Shown: piece by piece, positions 17,532 to 53,514 of the stretch
How positions within the stretch are numbered: the stretch's first letter is position 1
How the letters are laid out: every line of letters begins with the position of its first letter
Virus record (IMG/VR): IMGVR_UViG_3300009431_000004
Reading direction: 5' to 3' (one strand)
Length of the DNA stretch: 64,000 nt
Source of the DNA: a virus
The notes under the pieces: model-generated
The model's input: only the letters and a program-made list of their open reading frames with translations
What the model was told of the DNA's origin: nothing
The model's database searches: none
Made by a program: the position numbers and the translations under genes

Positions 17532-17759
17532 CTACTTGAGGTAGACGGACACCCCGTACCAGCCCTTCTCGCCGTAGCCGATGTCGATGTCCTTGATGGC
17601 GGACATGAAGGATTTGAGACGGGCAGACAGGAGCTTGTGGGCCTCCTTCGTGGTGGTGTCCGCAGTTTCGTCACGCTGCCACTCAGCGAGAGACTCCAAA
17701 CGCTCCTGTCGGAAGCCCCCGTCGATTCGCAGGTTGTCGTCGGTGATGTCCTTGGGCAT
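17532..17759 (-). CDS. hypothetical protein
   Basis: TGATG coupling to the upstream gene. Confidence 0.65.
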   Translation of the reverse strand: MPKDITDDNLRIDGGFRQERLESLAEWQRDETADTTTKEAHKLLSARLKSFMSAIKDIDIGYGEKGWYGVSVYLK

Positions 17760-18292
17760 CAGCGCGTCCTCTGCCGGAGGAGGTACTGGTGCGTCTCGTG
17801 GGTGTTCGCCATCGCGGCGAGAAAGTCGTTCATCCCCAAGGACAGCTCGCTCCGCGATTCAATCTCCTCGAATATCGCCTTCAGGGCGTCTTGAAGGGCG
17901 TCCTCCATGAACAGCGCCCGCCTGAAAAGGTCGTCCGGCACTGCGTCTGTCGCCATCGCTACGAGCCGGTCCATGAGGTGCGACTGCACGGCAGCGTTGA
18001 CGGCACTGGCACCGTACCCGGACACGAGCTTCTCTGCCAGAGCGTCGATTTCGTCGGTGACTCCACTGTAGAGGCGCTCGAACAGCAGGTGGTCGCCGTA
18101 CTGGGGGTCGCCCTTGGCCTGCCAGTGCGCCGTCCAGTGGCAGAAATGGAGCGCCCGCAGGTAGGCGAGGAGATTCTGTAGCATCTCCTCGGTCGGGACA
18201 TCCTCGCCACTCCACAGCGCGAGCTTCTGTGCCGCGACGCGGCGGGCAGTGTACCGGAGGGCCACTCTTCGTGCTGACTGGGCGATGTCCAT
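17759..18292 (-). CDS. Dps/ferritin-like protein with N-terminal RVAxR leader
   Basis: HWTAHWQAKG...DHLLFERLY...EIDALAEK...HETHQY. Confidence 0.8.
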   Translation of the reverse strand: MDIAQSARRVALRYTARRVAAQKLALWSGEDVPTEEMLQNLLAYLRALHFCHWTAHWQAKGDPQYGDHLLFERLYSGVTDEIDALAEKLVSGYGASAVNAAVQSHLMDRLVAMATDAVPDDLFRRALFMEDALQDALKAIFEEIESRSELSLGMNDFLAAMANTHETHQYLLRQRTR

Positions 18293-18301
18293 CGTCTACT
18301 C

Positions 18302-19852
18302 CTAGTTGGGCTTGTAGATGCCTTTCTTTCGCGCCCACTCCCGCAGTTCAATCTCGAACATCTTGAACTGCGGGCCGTGGTTCATGTGCCGGATATGGGC
18401 CAGCTCGTGCAGCATCGTCGCCATGACGGCGCTGTACTTGCGGAGCTTCATCGGAAAACGCTTCTGCCGGACGTTCAGGGCGATGATGCCGCCCCCTCCC
18501 CGGTTGAACCCCAGCGACCCCTCGGCCACGGACTCCTTGAGCGTCTTGAACTTCAAGCCGAACTCTCGAAGGAGCGGCTGCACCTCCCGCTTCACCTTGG
18601 CGAGGATGGCGGCCACCTCCTCCTTGCCTTCGAGGTCGTACACGGAGAAGCCACCCACGACCGTCCGCGCCCACTCCTTCTTCTGCTGGACCCGCTCGGA
18701 CTTCTGGCCGAGCTTCTTCTTGGCCCAGTTGACCCACTTGGGCAGGTACTTCTTGCGGACGAAGCCACCCTCGGGAGCGTCCTGCCCCCACTTGATGAGG
18801 AGCTTGTTGCCCCGGATGGAGGCTGAGGACCGCATCTTGTCGGAATCGACCTGCGTGACCTTCAAGCCGTCGATGACAGAATCCACGTAGGGGCTGATGG
18901 CCTTGGCCTGCTTGGCCTCGGGATGACGGGAACGCCAATCGGCCATCTGCTTGTCCTGCCAGAGGCGCTTGAGGACAGGGTTGCTGTTCAGCAGTCTTTC
19001 CGCATGGTTGGAAGGCGTCCCCGTTGCGGGCGAGCTGCCCGGTCGAGGATTTCCTTCATGGTACGGGATGTCCGTCTTGAACTGCTCGGGGGTGGCGTCG
19101 AGGACAGCTCCTCTGGGGCTGCGGAGGAACCAGTGGAGGATGCCCTCGTGCAGAACCTCCAACGCCTTGTAGCCAGCCTTCTCCCCGCCCAGCAGGTGAT
19201 AGAGGACCTCGGCGGAAATCCAGCAGCTACCTTTGCAGACCGGCAATGCTTTCTTCACGAGCTGAAGGGTCTTGCGTTCCTCGGATGTCAGCGAGGCGGC
19301 CTGCCGGGCGAGCCAGCGGGCAGCGACACGGGAGGCGGCCTTCGGGGCATCCGCCAAGTCGTACACATCGACTGACTGGTAGAGCCACTCATCCCTTTTT
19401 CTTCCCACCGCCCTCGCCCTGTGGACGGCCAGAACCTCGCCTTTTCGATAGGTCGCGGTGCCGTTGTTGAAGCCCGCTCTCCGCCACCCGGACATCTGAG
19501 GGAAGACACCCCACTTGAAGTCGTTTCCAGACCCTCTGGCGGGGGTGAGCCGGAACCGCCATCTTTTCTGGCCGCTGTCAAAGGAGAAGACTGCCTTGCC
19601 GTTCAGCTTTATCCCCTGCTTCTGAAACGCTTTTTCAATCTCGTCAACGGCCTTCCGCAGCTCGGAGGTGAAGTTGTCCGGCACCGTGAGGGCGGCCTTC
19701 TTCGCATCCGGGCCACTCTTGAACTCGTAATCGGGGTTCATCTTCTTGTAGATGCCCATGATGTAGGCGTAATTCTCGGCTTCGCCCTTCTCCTTGGCGA
19801 TTTCCTTGGCCTTCTCCCACTTCTCTTCGTCACGCTTAGTCTTGACTGGCAT
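18302..19852 (-). CDS. multidomain protein with C-terminal WLM/SprT-like zinc metalloprotease
   Basis: TMLHELAHIRHMNHGPQF (HExxH...H); internal ASRVAARW motif. Confidence 0.75.
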   Translation of the reverse strand: MPVKTKRDEEKWEKAKEIAKEKGEAENYAYIMGIYKKMNPDYEFKSGPDAKKAALTVPDNFTSELRKAVDEIEKAFQKQGIKLNGKAVFSFDSGQKRWRFRLTPARGSGNDFKWGVFPQMSGWRRAGFNNGTATYRKGEVLAVHRARAVGRKRDEWLYQSVDVYDLADAPKAASRVAARWLARQAASLTSEERKTLQLVKKALPVCKGSCWISAEVLYHLLGGEKAGYKALEVLHEGILHWFLRSPRGAVLDATPEQFKTDIPYHEGNPRPGSSPATGTPSNHAERLLNSNPVLKRLWQDKQMADWRSRHPEAKQAKAISPYVDSVIDGLKVTQVDSDKMRSSASIRGNKLLIKWGQDAPEGGFVRKKYLPKWVNWAKKKLGQKSERVQQKKEWARTVVGGFSVYDLEGKEEVAAILAKVKREVQPLLREFGLKFKTLKESVAEGSLGFNRGGGGIIALNVRQKRFPMKLRKYSAVMATMLHELAHIRHMNHGPQFKMFEIELREWARKKGIYKPN

Positions 19853-19860
19853 TGCAACCC

Positions 19861-20535
19861 CTACAGTCTCTTGAGGACCACCGACGCATCGGTGAGGTTC
19901 AAAACGCCCCCGGTATCTTGCAAGGCCACTACCTTCAACCGCGCCCCGGAAGCGTAGTGCCGGACTCCGCTCTGAAGGACCAAGGCGGGGTTCACCGGGT
20001 CGAAGGCTGGTACATACCAGCCCGCCCAGTCATCCGAGTACGACTTGAAGGTGCCTATCTGCTCGACGAAGAATCGCCAGTCCGCCCCAACGGGCCAGTC
20101 CGGGCCGAACAGGAACGCTCGATATGTGCCAGCGGCGCTGGGGGCGAAAGTGAGGGCCACCGACACAACGTACTGACCTGTTGTCGGCACGACAAGATGC
20201 GGGACAGAATATGGGATGCCGCCGTCAACATCCGATGTCGGCAGAGGCACATCGGTCGGGGTGGCATCCGGGAGGGCCAAGACTCCACTGAACGACCGGG
20301 AGGCGTTTTCCAGCACCGGACCTCCAAGTAGCTCATCAGTCAGGAACCCTTGGGCGATGAAGCCCCTGATGGTTCCGTCCACATAGGACTTGGCGACCTG
20401 AGTCGTGTAGTTGAGGTCGATGGTGCCGTTGACAGCCACGTAAACCGGGCCAGCGTTGGCGTTCTGAAGGTCCGCCAGAAACAGGGCGGTTGCCACTAAG
20501 CCGGTGTGAGTCAGTCGTAAAGTGAGGGCTGCCAT
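19861..20535 (-). CDS. putative virion protein with beta-rich (C1q-like) C-terminus
   Basis: VPTTGQYVVSVALTF pattern; class-III motif upstream. Confidence 0.55.
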   Translation of the reverse strand: MAALTLRLTHTGLVATALFLADLQNANAGPVYVAVNGTIDLNYTTQVAKSYVDGTIRGFIAQGFLTDELLGGPVLENASRSFSGVLALPDATPTDVPLPTSDVDGGIPYSVPHLVVPTTGQYVVSVALTFAPSAAGTYRAFLFGPDWPVGADWRFFVEQIGTFKSYSDDWAGWYVPAFDPVNPALVLQSGVRHYASGARLKVVALQDTGGVLNLTDASVVLKRL

Positions 20536-20592
20536 GTGCCCCTTCCGACATGGGCAGACACGCCTGCCCACCATTCTTGCTTATCGGAGGGT

Positions 20593-20604
20593 ATAGAAGG
20601 GCTA
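20593..20604 (-). promoter_or_regulatory. class-III (late-like) motif
   Basis: TAG-CCCTT-CTAT. Confidence 0.55.
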
Positions 20605-20925
20605 CCGTCGGAAGGGGTGTCGGCCTCGGGCCATGTCACGCATGATTCGACGCGGGTGGTGGGGTTTGTTGCGGTGGGCCAGCATCTCCATGTGGCTCAC
20701 CATGCGAAGCCAGAGCTGGTAATCCCCCATGTCCACGGAGCCACCTTCCTGCGCTATCCGGCGCAGTTCGGCGGGGTCCGGGACAGTTCGGCGGTCGCGG
20801 CCACCGGGGAGCAGTTGGGTCAGCTCCAAGTCGTCTGCGGGGGACCAGCCGTGCCGTCGGGCGCACTGTAGCGTCTCGATTCGGACAGCCAGTTGTTGCA
20901 GGTGCAGGGGATTCAACATCGTCAT
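20602..20925 (-). CDS. hypothetical protein
   Basis: AGGAGGAG RBS; class-I motif upstream. Confidence 0.65.
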   Translation of the reverse strand: MTMLNPLHLQQLAVRIETLQCARRHGWSPADDLELTQLLPGGRDRRTVPDPAELRRIAQEGGSVDMGDYQLWLRMVSHMEMLAHRNKPHHPRRIMRDMARGRHPFRR

Positions 20926-20940
20926 CTCCTCCTACGTACA

Positions 20941-20968
20941 CTACTCGGAGAAGACGGCTCTAAGCCCC
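20941..20968 (-). promoter_or_regulatory. class-I promoter-like motif
   Basis: GGGGCTTAG-N13-GAGTAG. Confidence 0.8.
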
Positions 20969-20971
20969 CAT

Positions 20972-21970
20972 TTATCCGTCGCCATTCTTGGGTTTGTCGA
21001 TGAACCAGCCGGTGTCCTCGGCGCGGGCGTCGCCACCGTCGAAGTCGAAGAACTCGTTGAGGACATCGGCCTGTGCGTCGGAGACGGCCTCGGGTTCGGG
21101 GGTGTCGTAGGAAACGGGGAACGCATCTTCCAGTTGCCCGTCCAGCTCTCGCAGGAAGTCGTGGCCCCAAGGACCGTTCTCCAACGAGTTGGTGAGCGAC
21201 TTGGGGAGATTGTTCTCGATGTCAGGGTGCAGGGAGGCAGCGGCCATTGCGATGCCTGCAACGCCGTCTACGTCGCCCGAGAAGGCGACCGCCGCCTTGA
21301 GGATGGTGGAGAGCTTGAAACCGCTCTGGATGGCTGTGAGGGCCGCCCTGACGGCACTTACGCCCTTGCCGTTGACATGACCCTGCCACGGAGTCTCCCA
21401 CGGGTATCCGGGCAGTTGCTCGGTCAGGAGCGGGGCGATGCAGTCGAGGTCGAAGCCGTGGCGGCACGCCCAGACCATGAGGGCGCTGGCCGCAGCAGAG
21501 GCCATGCCGTCCTTGGTCGCGTGGGTCAGGCTGGCTTGCCACATGGCCGTGTCGATGACTTCCTGCTCCCTCCCCAAGAAGCCGCAGACCACGGCCCTTT
21601 CCGCTGCCCCGGACTTGTCGCTGTGTGGTTCGATGAGCTTCAGGAACTCCTCGCCGCCTCTGTCAGGGTCAATCATGGTCAGGAACTCATGAAAGCCCTT
21701 GGCGTAGCCCACGCGAGGGTTGGCCTTGAATGTGTCCACGAGGCAGTCAGCCCACGCCAGAGGCGTCCGGGCTGCGTCGGACAGAAGCAAATGAGCCAGT
21801 GCAACCGCCATCTGCACGCCGTCGGTGTACTGGCCCGGCAGCAGCTCGGTATGGGACGGGTGCTGCCGGTACTTCAGGTCGTTGTTCAACTTCACGACAC
21901 CCGGAGCGACGTACTCGAAGCACGCCCCGTAGCTGTCCCCGAGGGCCATGGAAACCAGCATCCCCATCAT
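20972..21970 (-). CDS. ADP-ribosylglycohydrolase (DraG/ARH family)
   Basis: ALGDSYG, GQYTDGVQM, SGAAER, ASLTH, GDVDGVA. Confidence 0.88.
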   Translation of the reverse strand: MMGMLVSMALGDSYGACFEYVAPGVVKLNNDLKYRQHPSHTELLPGQYTDGVQMAVALAHLLLSDAARTPLAWADCLVDTFKANPRVGYAKGFHEFLTMIDPDRGGEEFLKLIEPHSDKSGAAERAVVCGFLGREQEVIDTAMWQASLTHATKDGMASAAASALMVWACRHGFDLDCIAPLLTEQLPGYPWETPWQGHVNGKGVSAVRAALTAIQSGFKLSTILKAAVAFSGDVDGVAGIAMAAASLHPDIENNLPKSLTNSLENGPWGHDFLRELDGQLEDAFPVSYDTPEPEAVSDAQADVLNEFFDFDGGDARAEDTGWFIDKPKNGDG

Positions 21971-23330: not shown

Positions 23331-24521
23331 CTACCGGAGCAGCGCAGTGAGAATCATGCCGGTGTTGGCCCAGTCCACGTTGTCCGGGCCGATGAGTTCC
23401 CGCACCGTGGTCATCTCGACGTAGGTCTTTTCGGTGTCTTCCGTGACCCCGTGGGTCTTGCCGGAGCCAACCTCGTCCCGGATGGTCTTCATCTCCTCGG
23501 CGGTCAGCTCGACCGTGAAGACGTGGCCGAAGTGGGAGGACAGGGTGCCGGTCACTTGACGGGCGTCCACGAACTTGAAGCGGTTGGCATCGACCTTGAG
23601 GCCCGTCTCTTCGTGCAGCTCCTCGGAGGCGACCACCAGCGCGTTTTCTCCGGGCTTCCACGAGGAGCCGCCGGGCAGCTCCCGGATGAACCCGTCGGGG
23701 GTCACTGCGGGCGACCGGAACTCGCGGACGAGGACGATGGGGGTGTCCATGAAGGCGTTGTGCGGCGCACATGCGTCGTCGTCTTCGGCACGGATGGGCT
23801 GATAGGCCACGATGGTCGAGATGTCCGGGCGGCCCAGCACGACCTCGTTGGTCTTGTGACGGTCCTCCTCCTTGATGTAGACATCGACGTGCAGCGCCCA
23901 GAAGAATACGAAGGTCTTTTCCGGCCCGACCCGGAAGGTCCAGACCACCTTGGCCCCTTCGAGCCTGTTCCCGGCCCCTTCCTGCGCCTTCAGCCACGCC
24001 TGAAAGCTCGGCGTGTTCCAGATGTAGAGGGGGACTTCGCGCTGGCCTCCGGCCCGGAGCGACCCGGCCCCGAGGGAGTTGACCACCCAGCCCAGCATCG
24101 AGGGCAGCGAGTGGAAGCTCGGGACTTTCTCCATGTCCGCGAGGTGCTGAAGGTAACGCATGGAGGGAGCATCTTCCGGGTAGCCGAGGACGCACTTGCC
24201 GGTCCCGTTCCACATCCCGAACTCGGTGTTGGTGGACAGGGCCGGGAGCTTCTCCTTGTCACGCGGAACCCAGAACACGATGAGGTCCGCCATGTTCAGG
24301 TGCTTGGCTTCCCAATCCACTTGGTCGGAGTACGTCTTGGGCCATTTCCCGTCACGCGGGATGGGGACGAAGACCACGCCGTCGTAGCCCAGTTCTTCCA
24401 GAATCTTGAGGGCTTCTGGCCGCCAGTTGGGATGGTCCTTGTCTCGCGGCGACGGCCCTGCGAGAAAGAGGCTCTTGGTCATGAATTCGGGGGCGTTCTC
24501 TTGCGAGTAAATGACGTGCAT
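23331..24521 (-). CDS. nucleoside 2-deoxyribosyltransferase-like domain fused to NUDIX hydrolase
   Basis: SLFLAGP...WR...QVDWE...ADLIVFW...TNTEFG; NUDIX box ELPGGS...EELHEETGL. Confidence 0.85.
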   Translation of the reverse strand: MHVIYSQENAPEFMTKSLFLAGPSPRDKDHPNWRPEALKILEELGYDGVVFVPIPRDGKWPKTYSDQVDWEAKHLNMADLIVFWVPRDKEKLPALSTNTEFGMWNGTGKCVLGYPEDAPSMRYLQHLADMEKVPSFHSLPSMLGWVVNSLGAGSLRAGGQREVPLYIWNTPSFQAWLKAQEGAGNRLEGAKVVWTFRVGPEKTFVFFWALHVDVYIKEEDRHKTNEVVLGRPDISTIVAYQPIRAEDDDACAPHNAFMDTPIVLVREFRSPAVTPDGFIRELPGGSSWKPGENALVVASEELHEETGLKVDANRFKFVDARQVTGTLSSHFGHVFTVELTAEEMKTIRDEVGSGKTHGVTEDTEKTYVEMTTVRELIGPDNVDWANTGMILTALLR

Positions 24522-24542
24522 GGCATACCTCCATGCGTCACT

Positions 24543-25640
24543 TTACCCGCCCCAATCATCTTTTTCTTCCTCGAAGCGGTGTTCACGACCCCGTGCGTTT
24601 ACGATGGCCCCCATGTCCCGGTAGACAGGAGCGGTCCACTTCAGCACTTGCTTGTCGCCCTTCACCCGGTTGCCGTCTGCATCGGTGCGCGGGCCGGTCC
24701 AGTAGTTGTGCCAGTGTCCCTTGCGGAACCGCCAGTTGCCCCTCTTGGATGTCTTCGCGCCGCTGCCCTTGGGGAGTGGCTTCGTCTCGATGGCCTTGCC
24801 AATCCAGACGATGGTCGCTTCGGTGAACGCAGCGAGAGTCTTCTTGAGCTGCGCCTTGGCCCGTTCCCGCTTCTTGCCCTGCTTGTGCTTCTCCATCGCG
24901 GCCCGGTGCTTCTTGAGGGCGGCCTGACGAGCTTGCTCGTCCGGGTCGTACTTCGCCTGTTCGGCCTTGAGGCTGCTGAGGTACAGGATGAGATTGATGG
25001 CCGTTCGGACGATGGACCGGGCATCCTGCTCCGCCTGCCGGTGGTCGTCCCCGGCCAATTCCAACAAAGGGTCCGAGTTGTCCCTCTCCGGGTTTGCAAA
25101 CTGGTTCTCGCTGAACGTCTCGAAGTCCAACAGGGCCGTTCCATCCGGCGCTTTCGTCTGTGGCACCATGTCGAAGGGGATAGACATCCAGAGGGAGGCG
25201 TCATCCTCCGGGAACCGGGCCTTCTCGTTGGGCATCCCCCACGCGGCGACCATGAACTCGTCGCCCCGTTCGTAGAGGTAGAAGCCCGTGACCTTGTGCA
25301 TCCCGGTCACGCTGCCGCCGAAAATTTCCCACTTGCACTCGGGGAGGGCTACGTAGATGCAGGTGTGCGGGGACTTCAGGAAGTCGAGGGGAACCTTCGA
25401 GCAGTCGGTGTCCGCGAACATCTGTTGGAGCCGGGGACCGATGCAGTAGACCTGCTGGCCGCACTCCGCGTAGGTCAGGGAACATTGCAGGAAGACGCCA
25501 TCCGAAGGAGCCAGCAGCCGCGAGGTCTTGACCTCTTGGTTGAACAGCCGGGCATCCCCGGCAAGGGCAGTGGAGAGCGTGGTCCTCCACCGGGGGTTGA
25601 CCCCCATCATGTGGTCGTAATGTAGGACGGGTCGTTTCAT
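24543..25640 (-). CDS. phage hypothetical protein with C-terminal RKGHW motif
   Basis: AGGAGG RBS; class-I motif upstream. Confidence 0.8.
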   Translation of the reverse strand: MKRPVLHYDHMMGVNPRWRTTLSTALAGDARLFNQEVKTSRLLAPSDGVFLQCSLTYAECGQQVYCIGPRLQQMFADTDCSKVPLDFLKSPHTCIYVALPECKWEIFGGSVTGMHKVTGFYLYERGDEFMVAAWGMPNEKARFPEDDASLWMSIPFDMVPQTKAPDGTALLDFETFSENQFANPERDNSDPLLELAGDDHRQAEQDARSIVRTAINLILYLSSLKAEQAKYDPDEQARQAALKKHRAAMEKHKQGKKRERAKAQLKKTLAAFTEATIVWIGKAIETKPLPKGSGAKTSKRGNWRFRKGHWHNYWTGPRTDADGNRVKGDKQVLKWTAPVYRDMGAIVNARGREHRFEEEKDDWGG

Positions 25641-25656
25641 CGGACCTCCTGCCTCT

Positions 25657-25684
25657 CTACTCTTTCAGAGGGGGTCTAAGCCCC
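25657..25684 (-). promoter_or_regulatory. class-I promoter-like motif
   Basis: GGGGCTTAG-N13-GAGTAG. Confidence 0.8.
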
Positions 25685-25722
25685 CTCTCCGGCGGGTAGG
25701 GTAGATGGGACAGGAGGTGCCT

Positions 25723-29226: not shown

Positions 29227-29685
29227 CTACTGATGAGGACAGGGAAAATTTCGGATGATGAAGCGGGAGGCAACCCGCTCGTTCGAGGGGCGTGGGTCGT
29301 GGAAATCCTCGGCCATTTGCTTGCGGATGGTCCGCACGTCCTTGGCGATGTCCGGGACGGGCCGGTCCTCGTCCACGATGTTGACCATCCATGCTCGGGC
29401 AAGCTCTCCGAGCATCTCCCCGGTCTTGGCCACCACGGTTCCGGGTTCGAGCGCCGGTATCTCCTCCGCCAGTGCCTCGACGGTCATCAGGTGTTTACGG
29501 ATGCAGTCGAGGCAGAACTTGTAGGGGTGGACGAGGTGGTCTTCGAGCAGGATGAACTGCTTGACGATTTCACGGAGGTTGAACTCGGGGTCCGTCAGAG
29601 CCGGGCGCTCCTCGGCGGTCATGAAACGTCGTGCGACCCGAGTCGCTGAGGCAGCCAGCCTTCTGCGGGTGACGTGGCGTTCCAT
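29227..29685 (-). CDS. hypothetical protein flanked by two RVAxRF motifs
   Basis: TRVARRF near the N-terminus, ERVASRF near the C-terminus; core LLEDHL...C-x-DCI-x-KH. Confidence 0.75.
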   Translation of the reverse strand: MERHVTRRRLAASATRVARRFMTAEERPALTDPEFNLREIVKQFILLEDHLVHPYKFCLDCIRKHLMTVEALAEEIPALEPGTVVAKTGEMLGELARAWMVNIVDEDRPVPDIAKDVRTIRKQMAEDFHDPRPSNERVASRFIIRNFPCPHQ

Positions 29686-29714: not shown

Positions 29715-29726
29715 ATAGGCCAACTA
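29715..29726 (-). promoter_or_regulatory. class-III (late-like) motif
   Basis: TAG-TTGGC-CTAT; 15 bp (GCCTATCCCGTCCAT) identical to 48936..48950. Confidence 0.6.
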
Positions 29727-44543: not shown

Positions 44544-47506
44544 TGGTCCTTGGCGTCCTCACGGAGCGCATGGAACAGGTCTGAAATCTCGTTCTCGGCG
44601 GCGATGATGGTGTCGTCGTCTTCGCCCTTGATGCGTTTCCCCAAGACGGCCTCTACCAGCTTCATCTTCTTCCGCAACACTTCCATTACCCGATGGTCAA
44701 CGGTCTTCGACCTACCCTTGGCCACAAGGTGGATGACGTAGCAGCGGTCGTGCAGCGACCCGATGCGAATCATCCGGCCCACGAGCTGAAGGAAGTCTCC
44801 GGCAGACCACGGGGTGTCCACACAGATGACTGCCTTCGCCGCTTGCAGGTTGATTGCCTCGGACCCGGCGGCGGTGATGCAGCATACTCGCGTCCCGCTC
44901 TCCGGGTTCTGGAAGGTGGCCATGGCGTCCTGCCGCTGGGCTTCGTTTTCGGACCCGGTGATGCGGACGGCCTCGACTTTCTTGGTCTTGAGAGTGGGCA
45001 TGATGATGTCAATCATCTTGCGGAACCGGGAAAACACGATGACGTTCTCTTCGGCAAGGTCGCCTTCGGTCAGCATGTCGGTGAGCTGGGTCAGCTTGGG
45101 GGACTCGGTTTCGATGCCGAGGAGTTCGAGGTCATTGCATATCTGCTGGCAGTAGGTGATGGCCGTCAGCTTCGTGACCTCGGTGACTTCCCCGGTCCCC
45201 TTCTCCAACAGACCGGCCAGAGCCTCGTCGTACTTTCCCTGCTGTTCGTCGGTGAGGGGGATTTCCACGACCTGCGGAATCAGGACGGGCAGCTCGGAGG
45301 CCACCTCGTGCTTGGGCCTGCCGAGGAAGTAAGGGTCGATGACATCCTTGAACTCCTGAATCCGCTCCGGGGTGTACCCGATGATGACCGGCACATGCCG
45401 GTTGGACCGGGGAATTTGCTGCATCCGAACGACGCAGTAGTACATCATGAACTTGTTGTGGTTCATGCCGAACAGGCCGGGCATGACCACCTGATAGATG
45501 CCGTAGCCCTCCATGAGATGATTCTTGATGAGGGTCGCGGTCAACCCCCATGCCCGCTTGGCACTGGCGGCCATGAACTTGCAAACCTGATGGACCTGCG
45601 TCCGGGGGTTCTTGAAGGCCGTGGCTTCGTCGAAGACCACGATGTAGTCCGTCAACCCCTGAATCCGGGAGATGTCCCTGACGGCGCTCCTGTAGCCCAT
45701 CACGACGACGCACGGACCCGTGGACTTCTCCCAGTAGTCGATGGCCTTCATGCGCTGGGTGGGTGTCCCACGGCACCCGATGACCCGGACGTTCCGGGTG
45801 AACTTGGAGAACTCCCGGACCCATTGGGTAGTGCCTGACTTGGTGGTCAGGACCACGACCTTCTGCGTCGGGTCCTTCTCCCAGATGTGGCAGAGCGCCG
45901 CGATGGTTTCGAGGGTGTTGTGGTTAATGAGGCCATTGCCGACGAAAGAGTGAGCGGGGTCATCAACTTCAATGTCAAAGACCTCTTTGAAACCCTCCGT
46001 GACCTTTTCTATAGGGTCGTAAAAAAACTTTTGTTGGCAGACATTCCGAACAGCTACAACTGACGGATGGTCAGAAGGAACATCGACTTCAGCGGCCACT
46101 TCCAGCATCTTCTCCAAATAGGCATAAGTGGGATTCCGAGTTCCCTGCCGGATGTGGCCCATAGTAGTATAGAAACCACTCCCCCACCGAGTTGAGATGC
46201 CTTCTCCACTATGCCCATGAAGACCGGCTTTCTCGTAAATCTCTGCCCTCAGATTTTCGACAAGCTCCTTGGCAAAAGGAATCACATCATGATTCGGATT
46301 CGAGAGGTCAGGCAATATCCCTTGCAGCCGTTCTTGTTTCCGGGGCGAGATAAACCCGATTACTTTTTGGAATTGCCGGGCATCATTTCCAAAGATGGTC
46401 AGTCTCCAATACGTATGGGCGTGACCAGTCGCTATCTTTGTGCTTCGTTTAGCCACTATGCCGAACTTGAGCAGGAGAATTTGAACCTCTCGGGCAAGTT
46501 GTTCCGAAGCTGTGGAATACTCAATACCCCCAGTGGACACGGCTCCCCCGTCTCCTTCAAACAACCCCCGCAGGAATTCCCGGACGGACCTCTCCGTTGC
46601 CCTCAAAATTGGGTCCGGCACCCTCTTGTCTGCCGAGAGGGTGTAATCCACACCCATCCCCTCTAAATACCGGCGAAGAAAAACACTGTCGATATTGGTG
46701 TCCGTCTGAACACGCCGAGCATCAAAACCAAGTTGAACCCCCAACAAGCGCCGGATGTCTTTCCACACCATGGGATTTTTCACTGGGGATTGTGATATGG
46801 TGAACTTATACCGATTATTGACCCAGCCTTCCGCCACAATGTAACCGAGAAGACGGGCCAATTCTGGATTCATTACATCAGGTACATCAAAGACACGAGC
46901 GTTTCCCGCCACTGACGGAAGTTGCAAAGCGGGTTCTTGCATTGGGAACACCCCCCGGCTTCGGGGAATACACACATAATCCCCTCGCTCAAGGTGTTGA
47001 AGCTGCTGGAATTCCTCACCAGAACTACCACGCATATATAAGGGATGGACAAAGGAACCCTCAACTTCAAACCCGTACCGACTTCTTACTCTACGAGTGG
47101 GCTTGTATCCCCCGTAATAAAAAGCCCGGATAGGGGCGGTGCGCCCCTCTTCCCCTACGCGGATTCGCCAATTACTACTTGACGGTGCGGGGCAAAAGGT
47201 ATCCGGCTTCATCCCAGCGGGGCACAGGTCACGGATACGCACTAAACCTTGATTTGTTTCCATCAGGGTCGGCCCTGTCACGCACTTGCCCAGTCCCGTG
47301 TCGTCTCCGAGGACGAACCGGCGCATCCCCACGAGGTGCATGATGCCTTGCGCCTGATAATAGCGGATGCGGAGAGGCTTCTCCGTCCCGTCGAAGTCCG
47401 TGTACGTCTCCTTGAGGTGCGTGGTCCGCTTCAACTTCAGGTCGGTCCGCGTCCGCATGGTCTTGAGCTTCTTGTAGGTCTTCGCAAGCTGAGAGTCGGG
47501 GTCCAT
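44540..47506 (-). CDS. SNF2-family helicase containing an intein
   Basis: YQ...GDDTGLGK|T, DEAT, LTATL, FSRF, SEAINLQ, QLVGRMIRIG. Confidence 0.93.
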   Translation of the reverse strand: MDPDSQLAKTYKKLKTMRTRTDLKLKRTTHLKETYTDFDGTEKPLRIRYYQAQGIMHLVGMRRFVLGDDTGLGKCVTGPTLMETNQGLVRIRDLCPAGMKPDTFCPAPSSSNWRIRVGEEGRTAPIRAFYYGGYKPTRRVRSRYGFEVEGSFVHPLYMRGSSGEEFQQLQHLERGDYVCIPRSRGVFPMQEPALQLPSVAGNARVFDVPDVMNPELARLLGYIVAEGWVNNRYKFTISQSPVKNPMVWKDIRRLLGVQLGFDARRVQTDTNIDSVFLRRYLEGMGVDYTLSADKRVPDPILRATERSVREFLRGLFEGDGGAVSTGGIEYSTASEQLAREVQILLLKFGIVAKRSTKIATGHAHTYWRLTIFGNDARQFQKVIGFISPRKQERLQGILPDLSNPNHDVIPFAKELVENLRAEIYEKAGLHGHSGEGISTRWGSGFYTTMGHIRQGTRNPTYAYLEKMLEVAAEVDVPSDHPSVVAVRNVCQQKFFYDPIEKVTEGFKEVFDIEVDDPAHSFVGNGLINHNTLETIAALCHIWEKDPTQKVVVLTTKSGTTQWVREFSKFTRNVRVIGCRGTPTQRMKAIDYWEKSTGPCVVVMGYRSAVRDISRIQGLTDYIVVFDEATAFKNPRTQVHQVCKFMAASAKRAWGLTATLIKNHLMEGYGIYQVVMPGLFGMNHNKFMMYYCVVRMQQIPRSNRHVPVIIGYTPERIQEFKDVIDPYFLGRPKHEVASELPVLIPQVVEIPLTDEQQGKYDEALAGLLEKGTGEVTEVTKLTAITYCQQICNDLELLGIETESPKLTQLTDMLTEGDLAEENVIVFSRFRKMIDIIMPTLKTKKVEAVRITGSENEAQRQDAMATFQNPESGTRVCCITAAGSEAINLQAAKAVICVDTPWSAGDFLQLVGRMIRIGSLHDRCYVIHLVAKGRSKTVDHRVMEVLRKKMKLVEAVLGKRIKGEDDDTIIAAENEISDLFHALREDAKDQ
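45917..47284 (-). mobile_element. intein with LAGLIDADG endonuclease, inserted in Walker A
   Basis: GK|CVTG...NGLINHN|T; LLGYIVAEG and FLRGLFEGDG; AT-richer than the host gene; 456 codons. Confidence 0.93.
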
Positions 47507-48921: not shown

Positions 48922-48944
48922 TCACGCCTCCTCTAATGGACGGG

Positions 48945-49004
48945 ATAGGCTGCCTACCGACGGCGACACTCCATTTTACCCCGTGCGGGCAATAGAGAGT
49001 CTAT
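48945..49004. promoter_or_regulatory. divergent pair of class-III (late-like) motifs
   Basis: TAG-GCAGC-CTAT on minus (48945..48956) and TAG-AGAGT-CTAT on plus (48993..49004). Confidence 0.6.
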
Positions 49005-49047
49005 CCGCACCCTCTAATGAGTTCGGTGTCTTCAACGGAGCCTTGAT

Positions 49048-52000
49048 GTGAGTAACGCCTCCAAACGAGTCGCCCGACGCTATCTGGCCTCGAAGATGTC
49101 CGCGACCCCCGACCCCAAGCCGGTCGGCGCGGGCCGCCTCATCGACCTTGCCAATTTCGCTCTGGCCTTCAGAGCCTACGGCAACTGGCTGGTCGAAGCG
49201 GGCCAAGACGGGAGCAAGGACGCGCTCTACGGTGCCGGGTTCAAGTTGGGTCGCCGGTATATGGTCGAGCTGGTCAACGGCACGTCCCAGCACATCGCCC
49301 CACTGATGGACGACAGCAAGGCGGCAGCCGTCGCGCCCGCCATCCGAAAGTCACAGAGAGCAGGAAATCCGGTGGTCACGATGGGCCGCCACGCGGATAT
49401 GTTCCAGACGGTTCTCCCGTGGATGTTGACGAAGCAGGCCATCTTCCGGGGGATGTTCCAAGGGAAGGTGGCCAAGGCTGCCCGCATGGTCGCCAACGCG
49501 GCCCAAGAAGAGTCCTTCCCGGCGCTCCTGAACAAGTCCGCCAACATCATGCCGGTGTCCGGCCTGCGAATCCCCTCCCAGTGGATTACGAAGGCAGCCA
49601 AGGCCGCCGGGGCGGAGCTGACCAGCACCGAGCTGACGATGGTGGACGCGAAGCTGGCCAAGGCACTCGGAGAGGACCTCAAGTCCGCCGAGACGGACCT
49701 CGCCGTTGCCCAACCCAACACACCCGAAGCCGCCGCGCTGGAAGAAAGGCGGACCGAGATTCTGGCCCGTATCGAACAGATGGCGGAAGAATCCGACAGC
49801 CCGGATACCGTCCGAGCCGTCGCCGGGTCTGTCCAGCAGATGTCGGACCACGCCACCGAAACGGGCCGCCGTCTGGGTCACACCATTGACCAAGAGGCGG
49901 CGATGATAGCGCAGGGGAGGGCCATCATCGCTGCGGGCGCAGGCTCCGGCAAGACCCGCGTGCTGGCCTCGAAGGTCGCCTACCACATCAATGAGCTGGG
50001 GGTTGACCCCACGGCCATCCTCGCCACCACCTTCACCACGAAGGCCGCAGGCGAGCTGAAGAAGAGGGTGGCCGACTACGGGGCCGTCATCGAGGGTGTC
50101 GCGGACGACAACTTCGGGACCACCCACTCCATCGCTGGCAAGATGCTCAACCGCCGGGCAACCGCGTTCCGGCGTCCCAAGTACATCGGCAAGAAGGAGA
50201 TGTGGAAGCAGTCCCTCCTCATCCGGCTGGCCATGGAGCAGGTCCAGATGACCGGCGGCGGGGAGCATCTCGCACCCCAGCCCAAGGGTTTCTGGGAGGA
50301 CGCCTTCGTGCCGGACACCCCGCCGGGGCAGGATACCGACATGGCGGACTACCAAGCCGCCGTTGACGACGCCATCGGGTTCTATCGCTGGGCTTCCGAG
50401 AACTGGCAAAAGCCGTGGAGGAACCGGCCCGGCAACCAGAAAGCTGCCGACTGGGCTGGGCGTGTCGCCGCAGACCTCATGGCCATCCGCAGCACGCCGC
50501 CCAGCCAGCTCACTCCTCGGCAGAAAGACTGGCTCAACAAGAGTGTGTTCCCCAAGGTCAAGCGGGTCCAATACCGTGTCGCCGCCAAGAAGAAAGAGGA
50601 CGAGGCACCCCCGGAGCCGAAGCAGCAGAAGAAGAAGCTCGACGACTACACCTACTACAAGAGGCCCGCAGGGCAGTGGTTCAACCTCGGTCGCAAGCTC
50701 ACCCGAGAAATCGGGGAGGGTGCCGAGATGGGCATCCCGCTCGGGGAGTTCAAGAACGCCATCTCCATCCTCAAAGGCAAGGGCATCTCCCCGTCCGAAG
50801 CATGGACCGGACAGGACGGCCCCTACGGTGAAGCGTCTGACGCCGCAGCCGTCTACGCCGCCTACGAGTGGCTCAAAGGCAGCAACGGGGAGCCGGAGTT
50901 CCAGTCCACGGGCGACATGGATGACATCCTCATCGACACCGTGAAGGCACTGGTGGGAAGCCCGACCCTCCGTCGGCAGATGGAGGCCCAGTACAAAGTT
51001 CTGCTCATTGATGAAGCCCAAGACCTCAACCGTGTGCAGCATCTCCTGTTCGGCCTGATGGCGGGCTACCTCGACGCCGAGACGCTCGAACCCCACGCCG
51101 ACAAGCACATGAGCGCCGACACCTACTGCCTGATTGGCGACGATAAACAGGCGATTTACGAGTTTCGCGGCGCGGACCCCGGTGAATTTATTGACAAATC
51201 CAACCTCACCGAAGGCGGCGACAACTTCTCGACCAAGATTCTGGACCTGAACTTCCGGTCCGGCGAGGCCATCGTTCAGGGGGCCAACCGGCTCATCGCC
51301 CACAACTGCATCGAGGAGGCCACCCCCATTAACACCCCCCAAGGGGACCGAAAAGCCTCTGACCTCCAAATCGGGGATTCAATCCTGACCTACCGGAATG
51401 GTGAAGTTGTCACGGGACAGGTATCTGAGATACATGAGTCCCTATGGACTGAAGGGTTTTGTATACGCACCCACAAAGGTCATGAGATTGTCATGTCTCC
51501 GAACCATCGCCTGTGGGCATCCGAACCTCTAATCCCGGACAACATGGTTTCGGTATACCTGATGTACCGGGAGGATTTCGGGTATCGCATTGGGACCACT
51601 TCTTGCGGGGGGCGTGTTTCTCAAGGTTCTAATTATCCTCAGTCTTTAGGGGCTAGGGCTGCGATGGAACATGGAGAAAGAATGTGGATTATCGGGGTAT
51701 ACCCCACAGTAGATGAAGCACTCCATCAAGAAAGCATCCTATCCCTTCGGTACAGCATCCCTATGACGGTATTCCGCAACAGGGGGAGGACGCCTTCGGA
51801 TGACCGAATTGTTCGCATTTTTCAAGAGTTTGGGAGTAATGGATTACGCCTATTGGAAGAACGGCACCTGTCCCCTGAGTACCCCCATTGGGCTGCCCGT
51901 TCCCAACGCGGGCATGGCCGCAACCGGGAGGTGATTTCCTTCATCGCTCACGGCGCACGGGGGAGTCAGGTTTACCTCCGAGGAGTAGATGGGGATATTC

Positions 52001-53514
52001 ATACCCGGAAACAGTTTGCGGTCTACGAGGAAGCCCAACAATTTGTTTGGGGCCTAAGTCGGGGAACTGGACATACCATCATCGAGAAAATGCAAATCGA
52101 GGACGCCGAGTTGCACCTGATGACTGCTTCAGCCTTAATGGAAGGGATGATGATTCCGGTGTTAGATGAGGGTATGGTGACACTCCAACGTATCCAGTCT
52201 ATCCAAAGAACAAAAGGCACCTTCTTGGACTTAGGCATCGAAGGAACTTGCAATTTCTTTGGAGGGGGAATCCTGAGTCATAATTCCAAACAGGTGCCGA
52301 TGGTCTGCAAGGCCAACGTGGACCGCAACGGCACAGGGCAGCTCATCAGCCGTCCAGCGGAAGACTCCGCCGAGGCCGGTGTGCTGGTGGCCGAAGAAAT
52401 CGAGTCCATGATGGAGACGGCAGAGGACGATGCCTCGAAGTACATCGACTTCGGTGTCGCTGTCCGCTCGAACGCCGAGGCATACCACTACGGGTTGGAG
52501 ATGCTCAAGCGGGGCATCCCCTTCAAGTCCAACGCCCGGTTCTTCAGCGACCCGAACACCAAGGCGCTCATCGGCTGGCTCACCATCGCGGAGAACGGTA
52601 TCGACGGCCCTCCGGCCATGATGGAGCAGGCGGTCAAGGATGCCATGAAGGCTCCCTACAGCCGCCTCGGAAAGGCTCTCCTGAACACCTTGATGGAGGA
52701 CGCGGGCGGCACTCCGTGGACCAAGTACCTCGTGGACAACGCCTCCACCATCTACCGGCGCGACCCGTGGAAGGGATTTCTCGAACACTTCGCAGAGAAC
52801 ATCAAGGCTGCCTCGAAGCTCACCGGCACACCCCCGGACATTCTGGGGAAAATCATGCTGTTCAACGGGGTGGATGGAACCTCGATGCAGACCGGAATGA
52901 TTCGCAGTGTGGCCGAGAACGAGGACATCATGGCCGAGCTGGCCGCCGCCTCCGAGGGGGGCGTTGTCACACAGGAGCAGCTCGACGAAGCGGCCCTCGC
53001 GCCGGTCGAACCTCTCATCGGCCTCATGTCCGGCAAGGAGGAACTGGGGCCTGCGATGACCTTCGTCCGCAAGCTCCGGGCGGTCAACGACAAGGTGACT
53101 TCCAAGGACACCGAGGAGGAGCTGGACCGCGACGCCGTGACCATCGGGACCATGCACTCGTGGAAGGGCCTCGAATGCCCCAACGTCTACGCCCCCATGG
53201 TCGGCGGCAAGTTCCCCCGGACCGGGCCGGATGGTACGGCGCTGGAAAGCCCGGACCTGTGGTCCGAGCGTCGTCTTGCCTACGTGGCCATCACCCGCGC
53301 CGAGCAACGCTGCTGTGTCCTCGACATCCCCAACCCCAAGACCGGCCACCGGAGCCAGTTCCTCGCAGAAGCCTGTGTGCAACCGGAGGGGATGCCTGCC
53401 GACGGTGAGGGGAAGGTTCCGAAGACAGCCGCGTGGCAGCCTGCTCGGGATGAGATAGAGGAGCTGATGGACCTCGGCTACGCCATCGAACAGAAGCTCA
53501 CAGGAGGACAGTGA
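49048..53514 (+). CDS. UvrD/PcrA SF1 helicase with long N-terminal extension and an intein
   Basis: AGAGSGKT, TFTTKAA, IDEAQD, GDDKQAIYEFRGA, NFRS, TMHSWKGLE, ERRLAYVAITRA. Confidence 0.93.
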   Translation: MSNASKRVARRYLASKMSATPDPKPVGAGRLIDLANFALAFRAYGNWLVEAGQDGSKDALYGAGFKLGRRYMVELVNGTSQHIAPLMDDSKAAAVAPAIRKSQRAGNPVVTMGRHADMFQTVLPWMLTKQAIFRGMFQGKVAKAARMVANAAQEESFPALLNKSANIMPVSGLRIPSQWITKAAKAAGAELTSTELTMVDAKLAKALGEDLKSAETDLAVAQPNTPEAAALEERRTEILARIEQMAEESDSPDTVRAVAGSVQQMSDHATETGRRLGHTIDQEAAMIAQGRAIIAAGAGSGKTRVLASKVAYHINELGVDPTAILATTFTTKAAGELKKRVADYGAVIEGVADDNFGTTHSIAGKMLNRRATAFRRPKYIGKKEMWKQSLLIRLAMEQVQMTGGGEHLAPQPKGFWEDAFVPDTPPGQDTDMADYQAAVDDAIGFYRWASENWQKPWRNRPGNQKAADWAGRVAADLMAIRSTPPSQLTPRQKDWLNKSVFPKVKRVQYRVAAKKKEDEAPPEPKQQKKKLDDYTYYKRPAGQWFNLGRKLTREIGEGAEMGIPLGEFKNAISILKGKGISPSEAWTGQDGPYGEASDAAAVYAAYEWLKGSNGEPEFQSTGDMDDILIDTVKALVGSPTLRRQMEAQYKVLLIDEAQDLNRVQHLLFGLMAGYLDAETLEPHADKHMSADTYCLIGDDKQAIYEFRGADPGEFIDKSNLTEGGDNFSTKILDLNFRSGEAIVQGANRLIAHNCIEEATPINTPQGDRKASDLQIGDSILTYRNGEVVTGQVSEIHESLWTEGFCIRTHKGHEIVMSPNHRLWASEPLIPDNMVSVYLMYREDFGYRIGTTSCGGRVSQGSNYPQSLGARAAMEHGERMWIIGVYPTVDEALHQESILSLRYSIPMTVFRNRGRTPSDDRIVRIFQEFGSNGLRLLEERHLSPEYPHWAARSQRGHGRNREVISFIAHGARGSQVYLRGVDGDIHTRKQFAVYEEAQQFVWGLSRGTGHTIIEKMQIEDAELHLMTASALMEGMMIPVLDEGMVTLQRIQSIQRTKGTFLDLGIEGTCNFFGGGILSHNSKQVPMVCKANVDRNGTGQLISRPAEDSAEAGVLVAEEIESMMETAEDDASKYIDFGVAVRSNAEAYHYGLEMLKRGIPFKSNARFFSDPNTKALIGWLTIAENGIDGPPAMMEQAVKDAMKAPYSRLGKALLNTLMEDAGGTPWTKYLVDNASTIYRRDPWKGFLEHFAENIKAASKLTGTPPDILGKIMLFNGVDGTSMQTGMIRSVAENEDIMAELAAASEGGVVTQEQLDEAALAPVEPLIGLMSGKEELGPAMTFVRKLRAVNDKVTSKDTEEELDRDAVTIGTMHSWKGLECPNVYAPMVGGKFPRTGPDGTALESPDLWSERRLAYVAITRAEQRCCVLDIPNPKTGHRSQFLAEACVQPEGMPADGEGKVPKTAAWQPARDEIEELMDLGYAIEQKLTGGQ
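51307..52284 (+). mobile_element. intein in UvrD with a non-LAGLIDADG central domain
   Basis: HN|CIEEATPI...SPNHRLW...GGILSHN|S; AT-richer; 326 codons. Confidence 0.9.

What the first reader, a model, noticed from the sequence alone, without database searches (positions are those of the whole stretch)
17759..53514. Shared R-V-A-x-R-[YFW] peptide in unrelated proteins: candidate capsid-packaging or maturation signal
Seen: SARRVALRYTARRVAAQK (Dps-like N-terminus, about 18277), KAASRVAARWLARQAA (metalloprotease multidomain protein, about 19320), ASATRVARRFMTA and ERVASRF (29227..29685), and SNASKRVARRYLASK (UvrD N-terminus, 49060). These proteins share no fold and the motif sits outside their catalytic cores. 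All four genes lie in units headed by the TAG-N5-CTAT motif. Short [KR]-x-A-A sites (KKAA, RQAA, RVAA, KTAA, KFAA) mark apparent domain boundaries. Established analogy: T4 internal proteins have an N-terminal capsid-targeting sequence removed by the prohead protease. Inference: a portable tag that loads enzymes (helicase, Dps, protease) into the head for ejection into the host.
Basis: partly seen in the sequence, partly recalled or inferred. Interest (0 to 1): 0.85.

Follow-up and report, generated by a model that had tools for sequence, protein, structure and literature searches.

The report
Portable RVAxRY address tag, huge phages
A clade of uncultured huge phages attaches the same six-residue peptide (R-V-A-x-R-Y/F/W) to either end, or between the domains, of about 15-25 unrelated DNA/RNA enzymes per genome; it is a real, selected docking tag, most plausibly for loading these proteins into the virus head, though its partner has not been identified.

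Summary
RVA.R[YFW] occurs five times in the window. All five are in real genes, against 0.05 expected. Codons differ at synonymous sites, so selection acts on the peptide.

The window belongs to an uncultured huge-phage clade. Complete relatives are G001 (436 kb, syntenic) and G002 (536 kb). They carry 14 and 13 strict tags against about 0.3 expected. Of 38 tags, 24 lie in the first 25 or last about 18 residues (P = 8e-10).

In the Dps-like family, 22 of 120 homologues carry the tag, some N-terminal and some C-terminal. The window's Dps has it at the N-terminus, while its G001 and G002 orthologues have it at the C-terminus.

Internal copies sit in giant "polyvalent" proteins (Topo IB, 2H, CCA/poly(A) polymerase, HAD, InPase, ParB). 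In three genomes these are encoded between the portal and prohead protease genes.

Two cultured capsid-protein relatives, phage G and Tunturi_5, have no in-frame tag.

The function is inferred, not shown. I favour capsid loading at about 0.45. Rivals are another phage hub, a protease recognition site and nucleic-acid binding. The [KR]xAA sub-claim is near chance. The TAG-N5-CTAT motif is real but not late-specific. The scan has noted different-sequence tags in other huge phages.

The parts
49066..49083 (+). Tag RVARRY, residues 7-12 of the UvrD-like helicase
   Evidence: The position is conserved in orthologues: G001 has KRVSKRYL and G002 has a degenerate N-terminal copy plus KVASRW near its C-terminus.
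49048..53514 (+). UvrD-like helicase, 1488 aa. It has an N-terminal tag, a 280-aa extension of unknown function and an intein.
   Evidence: Pfam UvrD-helicase 7.6e-46, UvrD_C, and weak Hint/Intein_splicing hits. A GGAG box lies 7 nt before the GTG start.
18251..18268 (-). Tag RVALRY, residues 9-14 of the Dps-like protein, followed by a half-copy RRVAAQK (18224-18244)
   Evidence: AGGAG lies before the ATG. The database gene call also uses the long form.
17759..18292 (-). Dps-like / DUF5856 ferritin-fold protein, 177 aa (cargo)
   Evidence: DUF5856 at 1.4e-4. There are 183 homologues, several of which sources name DNA-binding ferritin-like protein. Of the 120 listed, 22 carry the tag at either the N- or the C-terminus.
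19313..19330 (-). Internal tag RVAARW, residues 175-180 of the multidomain WLM protein, between an N-terminal domain and a YunG-like domain
18302..19852 (-). Small polyvalent-type protein, 516 aa: N-module, unknown domain, tag, YunG-like domain, C-terminal WLM/zincin peptidase
   Evidence: Pfam WLM 2.7e-16 and YunG 3.7e-5. The WLM half is 66% identical to a G001 ORF that is preceded by a tagged ORF.
19718..19852 (-). Second portable element: the N-terminal module MPVKTKRDEEKWEKAKEIAKEKGEAENYAYIMGIYKKMNP
   Evidence: The same module heads Dps homologues P0129 and P0238, P0003 fusions in L043, L046 and L060, and proteins of G002 and G005. It is usually followed directly by the tag. It has no Pfam family.
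19682..19702 (-).
   Evidence: The homologous position reads KKVANRYF in P0376 and ERVARQW in G002.
29623..29640 (-). N-terminal tag RVARRF, residues 16-21 of P0003
   Evidence: Family-wide consensus is RRxAAxxxR[VI]AxR[HYF]. It lies within predicted helix 3-22.
29260..29277 (-). C-terminal tag RVASRF, residues 137-142 of P0003
   Evidence: R137 and A139 are nearly invariant in 47 homologues. It lies within predicted helix 134-146.
29227..29685 (-). P0003: 152-aa four-helix-bundle protein with invariant CxxC..KH and CPH residues and a tag at each end. It is an obligate tag bearer.
   Evidence: 402 homologues; alignment A1; AF2 model with pLDDT 89.6. It lies beside the portal gene in LR745208 and is fused into or adjacent to Topo IB polyvalent proteins in L032-L038.
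55214..55231 (+). Decayed C-terminal tag RVGADE of the helicase's 582-aa neighbour (53516-55264)
   Evidence: The G002 orthologue ends ...SRFRVASRYYLDFLRRLA with a strict tag at the same position.
20593..20604 (-). TAG-N5-CTAT promoter-like site heading the unit that contains the WLM and Dps-like genes
29715..29726 (-). TAG-N5-CTAT site heading P0003, thymidine kinase and DNA methyltransferase
48992..49004 (.). Palindromic TAG-N5-CTAT pair. The + copy lies upstream of the helicase.

Best explanation
R-V-A-x-R-[Y/F/W] is a short amphipathic basic helix that works as a portable docking ('address') tag. It is usually capped by S/A-A-x and followed by L/M-x-A. It operates in one clade of uncultured huge phages.

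Shown here:
- It is under peptide-level selection.
- It is about 50-fold enriched.
- It sits mostly at the extreme N- or C-terminus, or between domains.
- It has moved between ends within single protein families.
- It marks about 15-25 proteins per genome. Nearly all that can be annotated are nucleic-acid enzymes of the 'polyvalent protein'/Dar type: Topo IB, 2H, CCA/poly(A) polymerase, HAD_SAK, InPase, ParB, GNAT, SWIM, WGR, WLM peptidase, UvrD helicase and Dps-like.

Inferred: all tags are read by one highly conserved partner. Most likely this is the inner face of the procapsid, meaning the major capsid protein, which is 86-92% identical across the clade, or its acidic scaffold. Tagged proteins would then be built into the head. 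Multi-tag proteins would be held multivalently. The proteins that can unfold would enter the host with the DNA.
For: Enrichment and sharpness:
- Window 5 against 0.05 expected.
- G001 14 against 0.24, and G002 13 against 0.30, with every position dominated by one residue.
- In 80 IMG/VR loci (1.34 Mb), 50 hits, all on the strand of the P0003 match.

Peptide-level selection: synonymous codon differences between copies.

Portability:
- Dps-like homologues carry the tag either 5-11 residues after Met or in the last 8-12 residues.
- The syntenic Dps orthologues have it C-terminal in G001 and G002 but N-terminal in the window.
- Terminal bias is 24 of 38, P = 8e-10.

Helical: both P0003 tags lie in predicted helices.

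Capsid link:
- In G001, G002 and LR745208 the gene order is TerL, portal, (P0003), multi-tag polyvalent protein, acidic proteins, prohead protease, MCP.
- Further tagged small proteins lie in that module.
- The domain repertoire matches that of polyvalent proteins predicted to be encapsidated (PMC5512222).
- Precedent: the N-terminal 30 residues of the P1 helicase/methylase DarB suffice for capsid loading (PMC9024508).

Conserved receptor argument: the tag is nearly invariant between genomes whose median orthologue identity is 53% and 41%. The MCP is the one outlier, at 92% and 87%.

Lineage specificity: phage G and Tunturi_5, whose MCPs are 38-49% identical to the clade's, have no in-frame tag.
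Against: - There is no virion proteome, and no cultured phage carries the tag.
- Many tagged genes sit in replication or nucleotide-metabolism regions. The window's are co-transcribed with thymidine kinase and a methyltransferase, and G001's 61-84 kb cluster lies beside a ribonucleotide reductase and helicases.
- The shared promoter-like motif also heads replication genes, so late co-expression is not shown.
- A Dps dodecamer could not pass through a tail channel, so 'ejection' cannot hold for all cargo.
- MCP conservation has other possible causes.
- The scaffold-like and protease proteins of G001 carry no strict tag.
Confidence: 0.45

Rival explanations
1. The tag docks its bearers onto another phage-encoded hub inside the infected cell, for example a genome-associated repair/replication body or the P0003 four-helix core itself. 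Two-tag and multi-tag proteins would act as cross-linkers and single-tag enzymes as clients.
For: - Nearly all annotated cargo act on DNA or RNA.
- Many tagged genes lie in replication regions.
- P0003 keeps a tag at both ends family-wide, unlike the sporadic tags of Dps.
- P0003 and the tag are both absent from phage G and Tunturi_5.
Against: - The multi-tag polyvalent protein and P0003 map to the head module beside the portal gene.
- No hub candidate was identified.
- P0003-like folds also occur in giant eukaryotic viruses, with no tag system known there.
Confidence: 0.25
2. The motif is the recognition or cleavage site of a phage protease, either the prohead protease or the WLM/zincin peptidase of the polyvalent proteins. 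It would trim termini and cut polyvalent proteins into their domains.
For: - Internal copies lie between domains of polyvalent proteins, for example about 30 residues before every Topo IB domain.
- A WLM peptidase is itself tagged.
- T4 and phiKZ prohead proteases recognise short motifs repeated across many head proteins (established knowledge).
Against: - Tags that leave only 2-9 residues at a C-terminus, or 4-7 at an N-terminus, give no sensible product.
- The same family keeps the tag at either end.
- The motif is helical in a confident model, whereas protease sites are normally extended.
- Not every domain boundary has a tag.
- The MCP and scaffold-like proteins lack the strict motif.
Confidence: 0.1
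3. The tag is a small nucleic-acid-binding peptide that tethers enzymes to phage DNA, like the basic N- or C-terminal tails of bacterial Dps proteins.
For: - Two arginines plus an aromatic residue.
- The cargo are nucleic-acid enzymes.
- Bacterial Dps proteins bind DNA through a basic tail that is N-terminal in some species and C-terminal in others (established knowledge).
Against: - The invariant Val-Ala and the sharp definition of every position point to a protein-protein interface.
- Acidic residues often follow the tag, as in LKAQEDAE and LQAQDEG.
- Lys rarely replaces Arg.
Confidence: 0.07
4. Chance recurrence in Arg/Ala-rich high-GC proteins.
For: The motif was defined after it was seen. 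The hexapeptide does occur elsewhere, for example as 15 tandem copies in a moth trypsin-like protein.
Against: - Enrichment is 40- to 100-fold in four independent genomes.
- There are zero hits in non-coding frames.
- Terminal bias has P = 8e-10.
- The tag is conserved at orthologous positions.
- There are no in-frame hits in 806 kb of two related huge phages.
Confidence: 0.02

Closest known systems
Capsid-targeting sequences of phage T4 internal proteins (IPI-III, Alt) and of phage P1 DarB
   Same: A short peptide on otherwise unrelated proteins that directs them into the head. DarB is a helicase-containing antirestriction protein whose first 30 residues suffice for loading (PMC9024508). That mirrors the tagged UvrD-like helicase here.
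   Different: - Those signals are strictly N-terminal.
- T4's is removed at an adjoining LxE site.
- P1's Dar proteins share no consensus (PMC9024508).
- Here one sharply defined hexapeptide works at the N-terminus, at the C-terminus and internally, often in several copies, on about 15-25 proteins per genome and across a whole clade.
Encapsulin cargo-loading peptides (and the C-terminal targeting tail of the HK97 prohead protease; from my own knowledge)
   Same: A short terminal peptide on diverse cargo, including ferritin/Dps-like proteins, that binds the interior of an HK97-fold shell. It is portable between cargo.
   Different: - The consensus is different (GSL-type against RVAxRY).
- Encapsulin cargo genes lie beside the shell gene, whereas most tagged genes here are dispersed.
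- Binding to the shell is not shown here.
Polyvalent proteins of phages and conjugative elements (Iyer, Burroughs, Anand, de Souza, Aravind 2017, PMC5512222)
   Same: The internal tags lie in giant proteins that combine Topo IB, 2H, nucleotidyltransferase, HAD, InPase, ParB, GNAT and zincin peptidase domains. These proteins are encoded beside the portal and terminase genes. The window's tagged proteins look like a disaggregated version of such a protein.
   Different: That paper defines domains, not a shared short motif. Term searches of its text found no mention of one. The tag links polyvalent proteins with single-domain proteins encoded elsewhere in the genome.
Shared compartment-targeting motifs such as the Rubisco-binding motif of pyrenoid proteins or microcompartment encapsulation peptides (from my own knowledge)
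   Same: One short helical motif, terminal or repeated, brings many unrelated proteins to one abundant partner. Multi-copy bearers act as scaffolds.
   Different: The biology and sequence are different. This is an analogy of logic only.

Membership tests
Short linear docking motif (portable tag) | Significant enrichment over composition, in coding frames only | tested here: met
   5 against 0.05, 14 against 0.24 and 13 against 0.30. The 50 hits in the 80 loci all lie on the strand of the P0003 match, and none lies in another frame of the window.
Short linear docking motif (portable tag) | Occurs on unrelated folds and changes position within a family | tested here: met
   Found in at least 12 Pfam families. 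In the Dps family it is N- or C-terminal.
T4-type capsid-targeting sequence | Located at the extreme N-terminus of the precursor | tested here: not met
   Of 38 tags, 11 are N-terminal, 13 C-terminal and 14 internal.
T4-type capsid-targeting sequence | Followed by a prohead-protease cleavage site and removed on maturation | tested here: inconclusive
   No conserved site was seen after the tag. The specificity of this protease is unknown.
T4-type capsid-targeting sequence | Bearers are present in virions, and the tag suffices to load a reporter | not testable with these tools
   No cultured member was found. Phage G and Tunturi_5 lack the tag.
Encapsulin-type cargo-loading peptide | Short terminal peptide shared by diverse cargo, including ferritin-like proteins | tested here: met
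Encapsulin-type cargo-loading peptide | Binds a pocket on the inner face of the HK97-fold shell protein | not testable with these tools
   This needs binding or structural data. Only circumstantial MCP conservation is available.
Encapsulin-type cargo-loading peptide | Cargo gene lies adjacent to the shell gene | tested here: inconclusive
   The polyvalent protein and several small tagged genes lie in the head module. Most others are dispersed.
Polyvalent proteins (PMC5512222) | Many disparate enzymatic domains in one polypeptide | tested here: met
   The G001 2493-aa protein has 2H, PolyA_pol, Topo IB and GNAT domains. L034 has Topo IB and InPase. L062 has HAD_SAK and Topo IB. The window's P0002 is a small version.
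Polyvalent proteins (PMC5512222) | Encoded with the portal/terminase packaging genes | tested here: met
   Seen in G001, G002 and LR745208. This is not the case for the window's own four genes, which lie in the replication region.
Prohead-protease substrate motif | Motif is also present in the MCP or scaffold precursors | tested here: not met
   The MCP has only a variant, RVARVY. The acidic scaffold-like proteins and the protease have no strict tag.

The most novel reading that the evidence does not exclude
This huge-phage clade runs a capsid cargo-loading system that works like that of encapsulins. A single position-independent hexapeptide helix binds the ultra-conserved HK97-fold capsid protein and loads a repertoire of about 20 DNA/RNA repair and modification enzymes, and even Dps cages, into the head. 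If so, the packaged and injected proteome can be read from sequence, and the tag could be used to load foreign proteins.
Probability: 0.3. Interest if true: 0.85.

Novelty: new variant of a known kind. Interest (0 to 1): 0.7.

Why it matters
If the tag is a head-loading signal, it gives a sequence-only read-out of which proteins huge phages carry into the cell. It would show that these phages deliver a whole nucleic-acid repair and modification toolkit with their DNA. It would tie single-domain proteins and 'polyvalent' giants into one system. It would also offer a six-residue handle, usable at either end, for packaging foreign proteins.

It would be a mechanistic bridge between phage capsids and encapsulins, because Dps/ferritin-like cargo would be loaded by a terminal peptide into an HK97-fold shell.

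Even if the partner is something else, a sharply defined motif conserved across genomes whose other proteins are about 50% identical is a clean entry point. A peptide pull-down could find a central hub of an uncultured phage lineage.

Tried and rejected
- **Complex prediction, MCP plus helicase tag.** I ran the clade MCP (alignment A2) with the first 40 residues of the window's helicase. The verdict was 'no answer', score 0.00, and controls were not run. This is neither for nor against binding.
- **Fold searches of the P0003 model.** PDB Foldseek and VIA-wide gave only generic four-helix-bundle matches. BFVD gave uncharacterised giant-virus proteins.
- **Direct searches for relatives.**
  - Megablast of the window against phage records found nothing.
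  - P0001 patterns found nothing in IMG/VR.
  - An exact 40-mer of the window was absent from IMG/VR.
  - No whole genome is held for the window.
- **Pfam capsid and terminase families on G001 and G002.** These gave nothing or only weak hits. PHROGs then identified the head module.
- **DNA-level explanation.** A shared nucleotide element or upstream regulatory sequence is rejected by the synonymous differences, the ribosome-binding sites and the orthologue N-termini.
- **Tat signal, clamp-binding (APIM/PIP) and degron readings.** I considered these from memory and dropped them. There is no hydrophobic h-region. Relatives do not fit APIM. The variable tails after C-terminal tags, and the internal copies, do not fit degrons.
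- **Profile search of the tag over 1.84 billion proteins.** Only multi-copy bearers reach significance, so it gives no census. One hit is an unrelated moth protein with tandem repeats.
- **Promoter motif as evidence of late expression.** Rejected, because the motif also heads replication and nucleotide-metabolism units.
Full report
**What the window is**

The 64-kb window has 62% GC. It encodes a replication and repair region: family A DNA polymerase, a DnaB-like helicase, an SNF2 helicase with a LAGLIDADG intein, a UvrD-like helicase with an intein, a two-component module, thymidine kinase and a methyltransferase.

The nearest public record is the uncultured 485-kb phage LR745208.1, whose PolA is 50% identical. 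Through homologues of the 152-aa protein P0003 I reached 80 IMG/VR loci. I then fetched two complete relatives:
- G001: 435,804 bp, direct terminal repeats, 62% GC, syntenic with the window at about 50% protein identity.
- G002: 536,053 bp.

Yes. RVA.R[YFW] occurs exactly five times in the six-frame translation, all in GC3-supported genes and at the stated places. Residue shuffling gives 0.047 expected.

The motif is sharp. Every VA.R[YFW] is preceded by R, and 5 of 6 RVA.R are followed by an aromatic residue. Copies use different synonymous codons, so this is not a DNA repeat.

The N-terminal copies are translated:
- GGAG or GGAGG boxes precede the long starts.
- 47 P0003 homologues conserve the N-terminal extension.
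- The helicase orthologue of G001 starts MNKPNAKRVSKRYL.

**Is it more than chance elsewhere?**

- G001 has 14 strict tags in called genes against 0.24 expected.
- G002 has 13 against 0.30.
- At each of the five fixed positions one residue dominates.
- In the 80 loci (1.34 Mb) there are 50 hits, all on the strand of the P0003 match.
- Two cultured huge phages share the capsid-protein family: Bacillus phage G (38% identical) and Tunturiibacter phage Tunturi_5 (49%). Together they give 806 kb with no in-frame tag and no P0003 homologue.

**Portability**

Among the 120 listed homologues of the Dps-like protein, 22 carry RVA[SAQ]R[YF][LM]. It lies either 5-11 residues after the initiator Met or within the last 8-12 residues. 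One homologue has both, and the rest have none.

The syntenic Dps orthologues end ...RVAAWYLAKGK in G001 and ...RVASRYMK in G002, whereas the window's copy has the tag at its N-terminus.

Over the complete genomes plus the window, 24 of 38 tags lie in the first 25 or last about 18 residues. The expected share is 18%, giving P = 8e-10.

The usual context is S/A-A-x-RVA-[SA]-R-[YFW]-[LM]-x-A. In the confident P0003 model (pLDDT 89.6) both tags lie in helices.

**Who carries it**

Single-domain bearers:
- Dps-like protein
- UvrD-like helicase
- HAD_SAK
- SWIM and WGR proteins
- a C39 peptidase
- several small proteins of unknown function

Internal copies lie in giant proteins that combine Topo IB, 2H/2'-5' ligase, poly(A)/CCA nucleotidyltransferase, GNAT, HAD_SAK, InPase and ParB_N domains. 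These are 'polyvalent proteins' in the sense of Iyer et al. 2017 (PMC5512222), who predict that the phage versions are packaged in the head. Term searches of that paper found no mention of a shared short motif.

The window's P0002 is a small polyvalent protein. Its parts, in order, are the N-module, an unknown domain, the tag, a YunG-like domain and a C-terminal WLM zincin peptidase.

A second portable element is the N-terminal module MPxxxKTxxDExKWxKAKxxAxEQGxxxNYAYIMGIYKKMNP. It heads P0002, some Dps homologues and some P0003 fusions, and is normally followed directly by the tag.

One is KKAA after the N-module. The other is HRVGA at the C-terminus of the helicase's neighbour. Both are identified by comparison with P0376 and the G002 orthologue. 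As a class, [KR]xAA is barely above expectation, at 34 against 23.

**Context that bears on function**

PHROGs identify the G001 head module. The gene order is:
1. TerL, 19990-21864
2. portal, 17704-19401
3. a 323-aa protein with RVASKY
4. the 2493-aa polyvalent protein with three tags, 9266-16747
5. two acidic proteins, with a Zn-ribbon protein bearing RVARAF between them
6. prohead protease
7. a hyper-acidic 543-aa protein with EF-hand loops
8. a 230-aa protein
9. the 291-aa MCP

The order is kept in G002 and LR745208. In LR745208 the P0003 orthologue lies between the portal gene and the Topo IB protein. In loci L032-L038 the P0003 domain is adjacent to, or fused into, the Topo IB polyvalent protein.

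The MCP is the most conserved protein of the clade. It is 92% and 87% identical between genomes whose median orthologue identity is 53% and 41%. The 120 best of about 2000 database homologues are all at least 88% identical. A tag that stays nearly invariant across such divergence needs an equally conserved reader. That nominates the MCP, and then the portal at 70% and 64%, but it does not prove either.

**What argues the other way**

- The window's four tagged genes, and G001's 61-84 kb cluster, lie among replication and nucleotide-metabolism genes.
- TAG-N5-CTAT is real: 5 sites against 0.73 expected in the window, and 22 sites in G001, mostly upstream of genes. It heads all four tagged units. 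It also heads the replication operon, a clamp-loader gene and the MCP operon, so it does not mark a late class.
- No cultured phage has the tag, so no proteome can be consulted.

**Verdict**

I regard the portable, selected docking tag as established, at about 0.9. Its purpose is inferred:
- Head loading is the best-supported reading, at about 0.45.
- An intracellular hub is next, at about 0.25. P0003 is a candidate because it alone keeps a tag at both ends family-wide.
- A protease site is about 0.1.
- Nucleic-acid binding is about 0.07.

Relative to print, the closest systems are the T4 and P1 DarB capsid-targeting sequences (PMC9024508) and the encapsulin cargo-loading peptides. This one differs by being position-independent, multi-copy, sharply defined and clade-wide. 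The scan has noted analogous tags of different sequence in other huge phages (e1-370441, e1-5323741, e1-5336059, e1-5340821), so address tags may be a general habit of very large phages.

Noticed in passing
G001 locus L094:2891-3766 (-); homologues P0244-P0363: The 291-aa HK97-type major capsid protein is extraordinarily conserved. It is 92% and 87% identical between genomes whose median orthologue identity is 53% and 41%, and the 120 best of about 2000 database homologues are all at least 88% identical. It also contains an invariant tag-like RVARVYM at residues 180-186.
   Followed up: partly
window 19718-19852 (-): An N-terminal ~45-aa module (MPxxxKT..W.KAK..A.EQG...NYAYIMGIYKKMNP) is itself portable. 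It occurs on the WLM protein, on Dps-like proteins and on P0003 fusions. It has no Pfam family and is usually followed directly by the tag.
   Followed up: partly
window 49048-53514 (+) and 44540-47506 (-): Both the UvrD-like helicase (Hint/Intein_splicing, about residues 754-1079) and the SNF2 helicase (LAGLIDADG_3 plus Intein_splicing) carry inteins.
   Followed up: no
G001 4704-6335 (-), locus L094: A hyper-acidic, low-complexity 543-aa protein with EF-hand calcium-binding loops lies between the prohead protease and the MCP. It may be a calcium-binding scaffold or internal head protein.
   Followed up: no
G001 179199-180500 (-), locus L102/L103: The orthologue of the window's WLM peptidase half is preceded by a 142-aa ORF with an N-terminal tag that overlaps it in another frame. 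This could be two genes, a frameshift or an assembly error.
   Followed up: no
window 20593-20604, 29715-29726, 48945-48956, 48992-49004; G001 genome-wide: The TAG-N5-CTAT promoter-like motif is conserved between the window and G001, where it has 22 sites, most of them 30-60 nt upstream of genes. It heads structural, replication and tagged units alike.
   Followed up: partly
P0371 (Operophtera brumata KOB75155.1): A moth trypsin-like protein has 15 tandem copies of AANRVAARYSNT. It is an unrelated eukaryotic repeat that matches the tag profile by accident.
   Followed up: yes
model m8fca1a2fe9b6 (P0003): The P0003 four-helix core, with invariant CxxC..KH and CPH residues that probably form a metal site, has weak structural and sequence look-alikes in giant eukaryotic viruses (Tetraselmis virus 1, Fadolivirus, Yasminevirus). 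Three of the IMG/VR loci that carry it are labelled GVMAG.
   Followed up: no
G005 24207-27278 (-); G004 165135-165554: In some relatives the Dps-like domain is fused into much larger proteins (open frames of 1024 and 554 aa) that begin with the N-module. The Dps-like protein can therefore itself be a polyvalent-protein domain.
   Followed up: no
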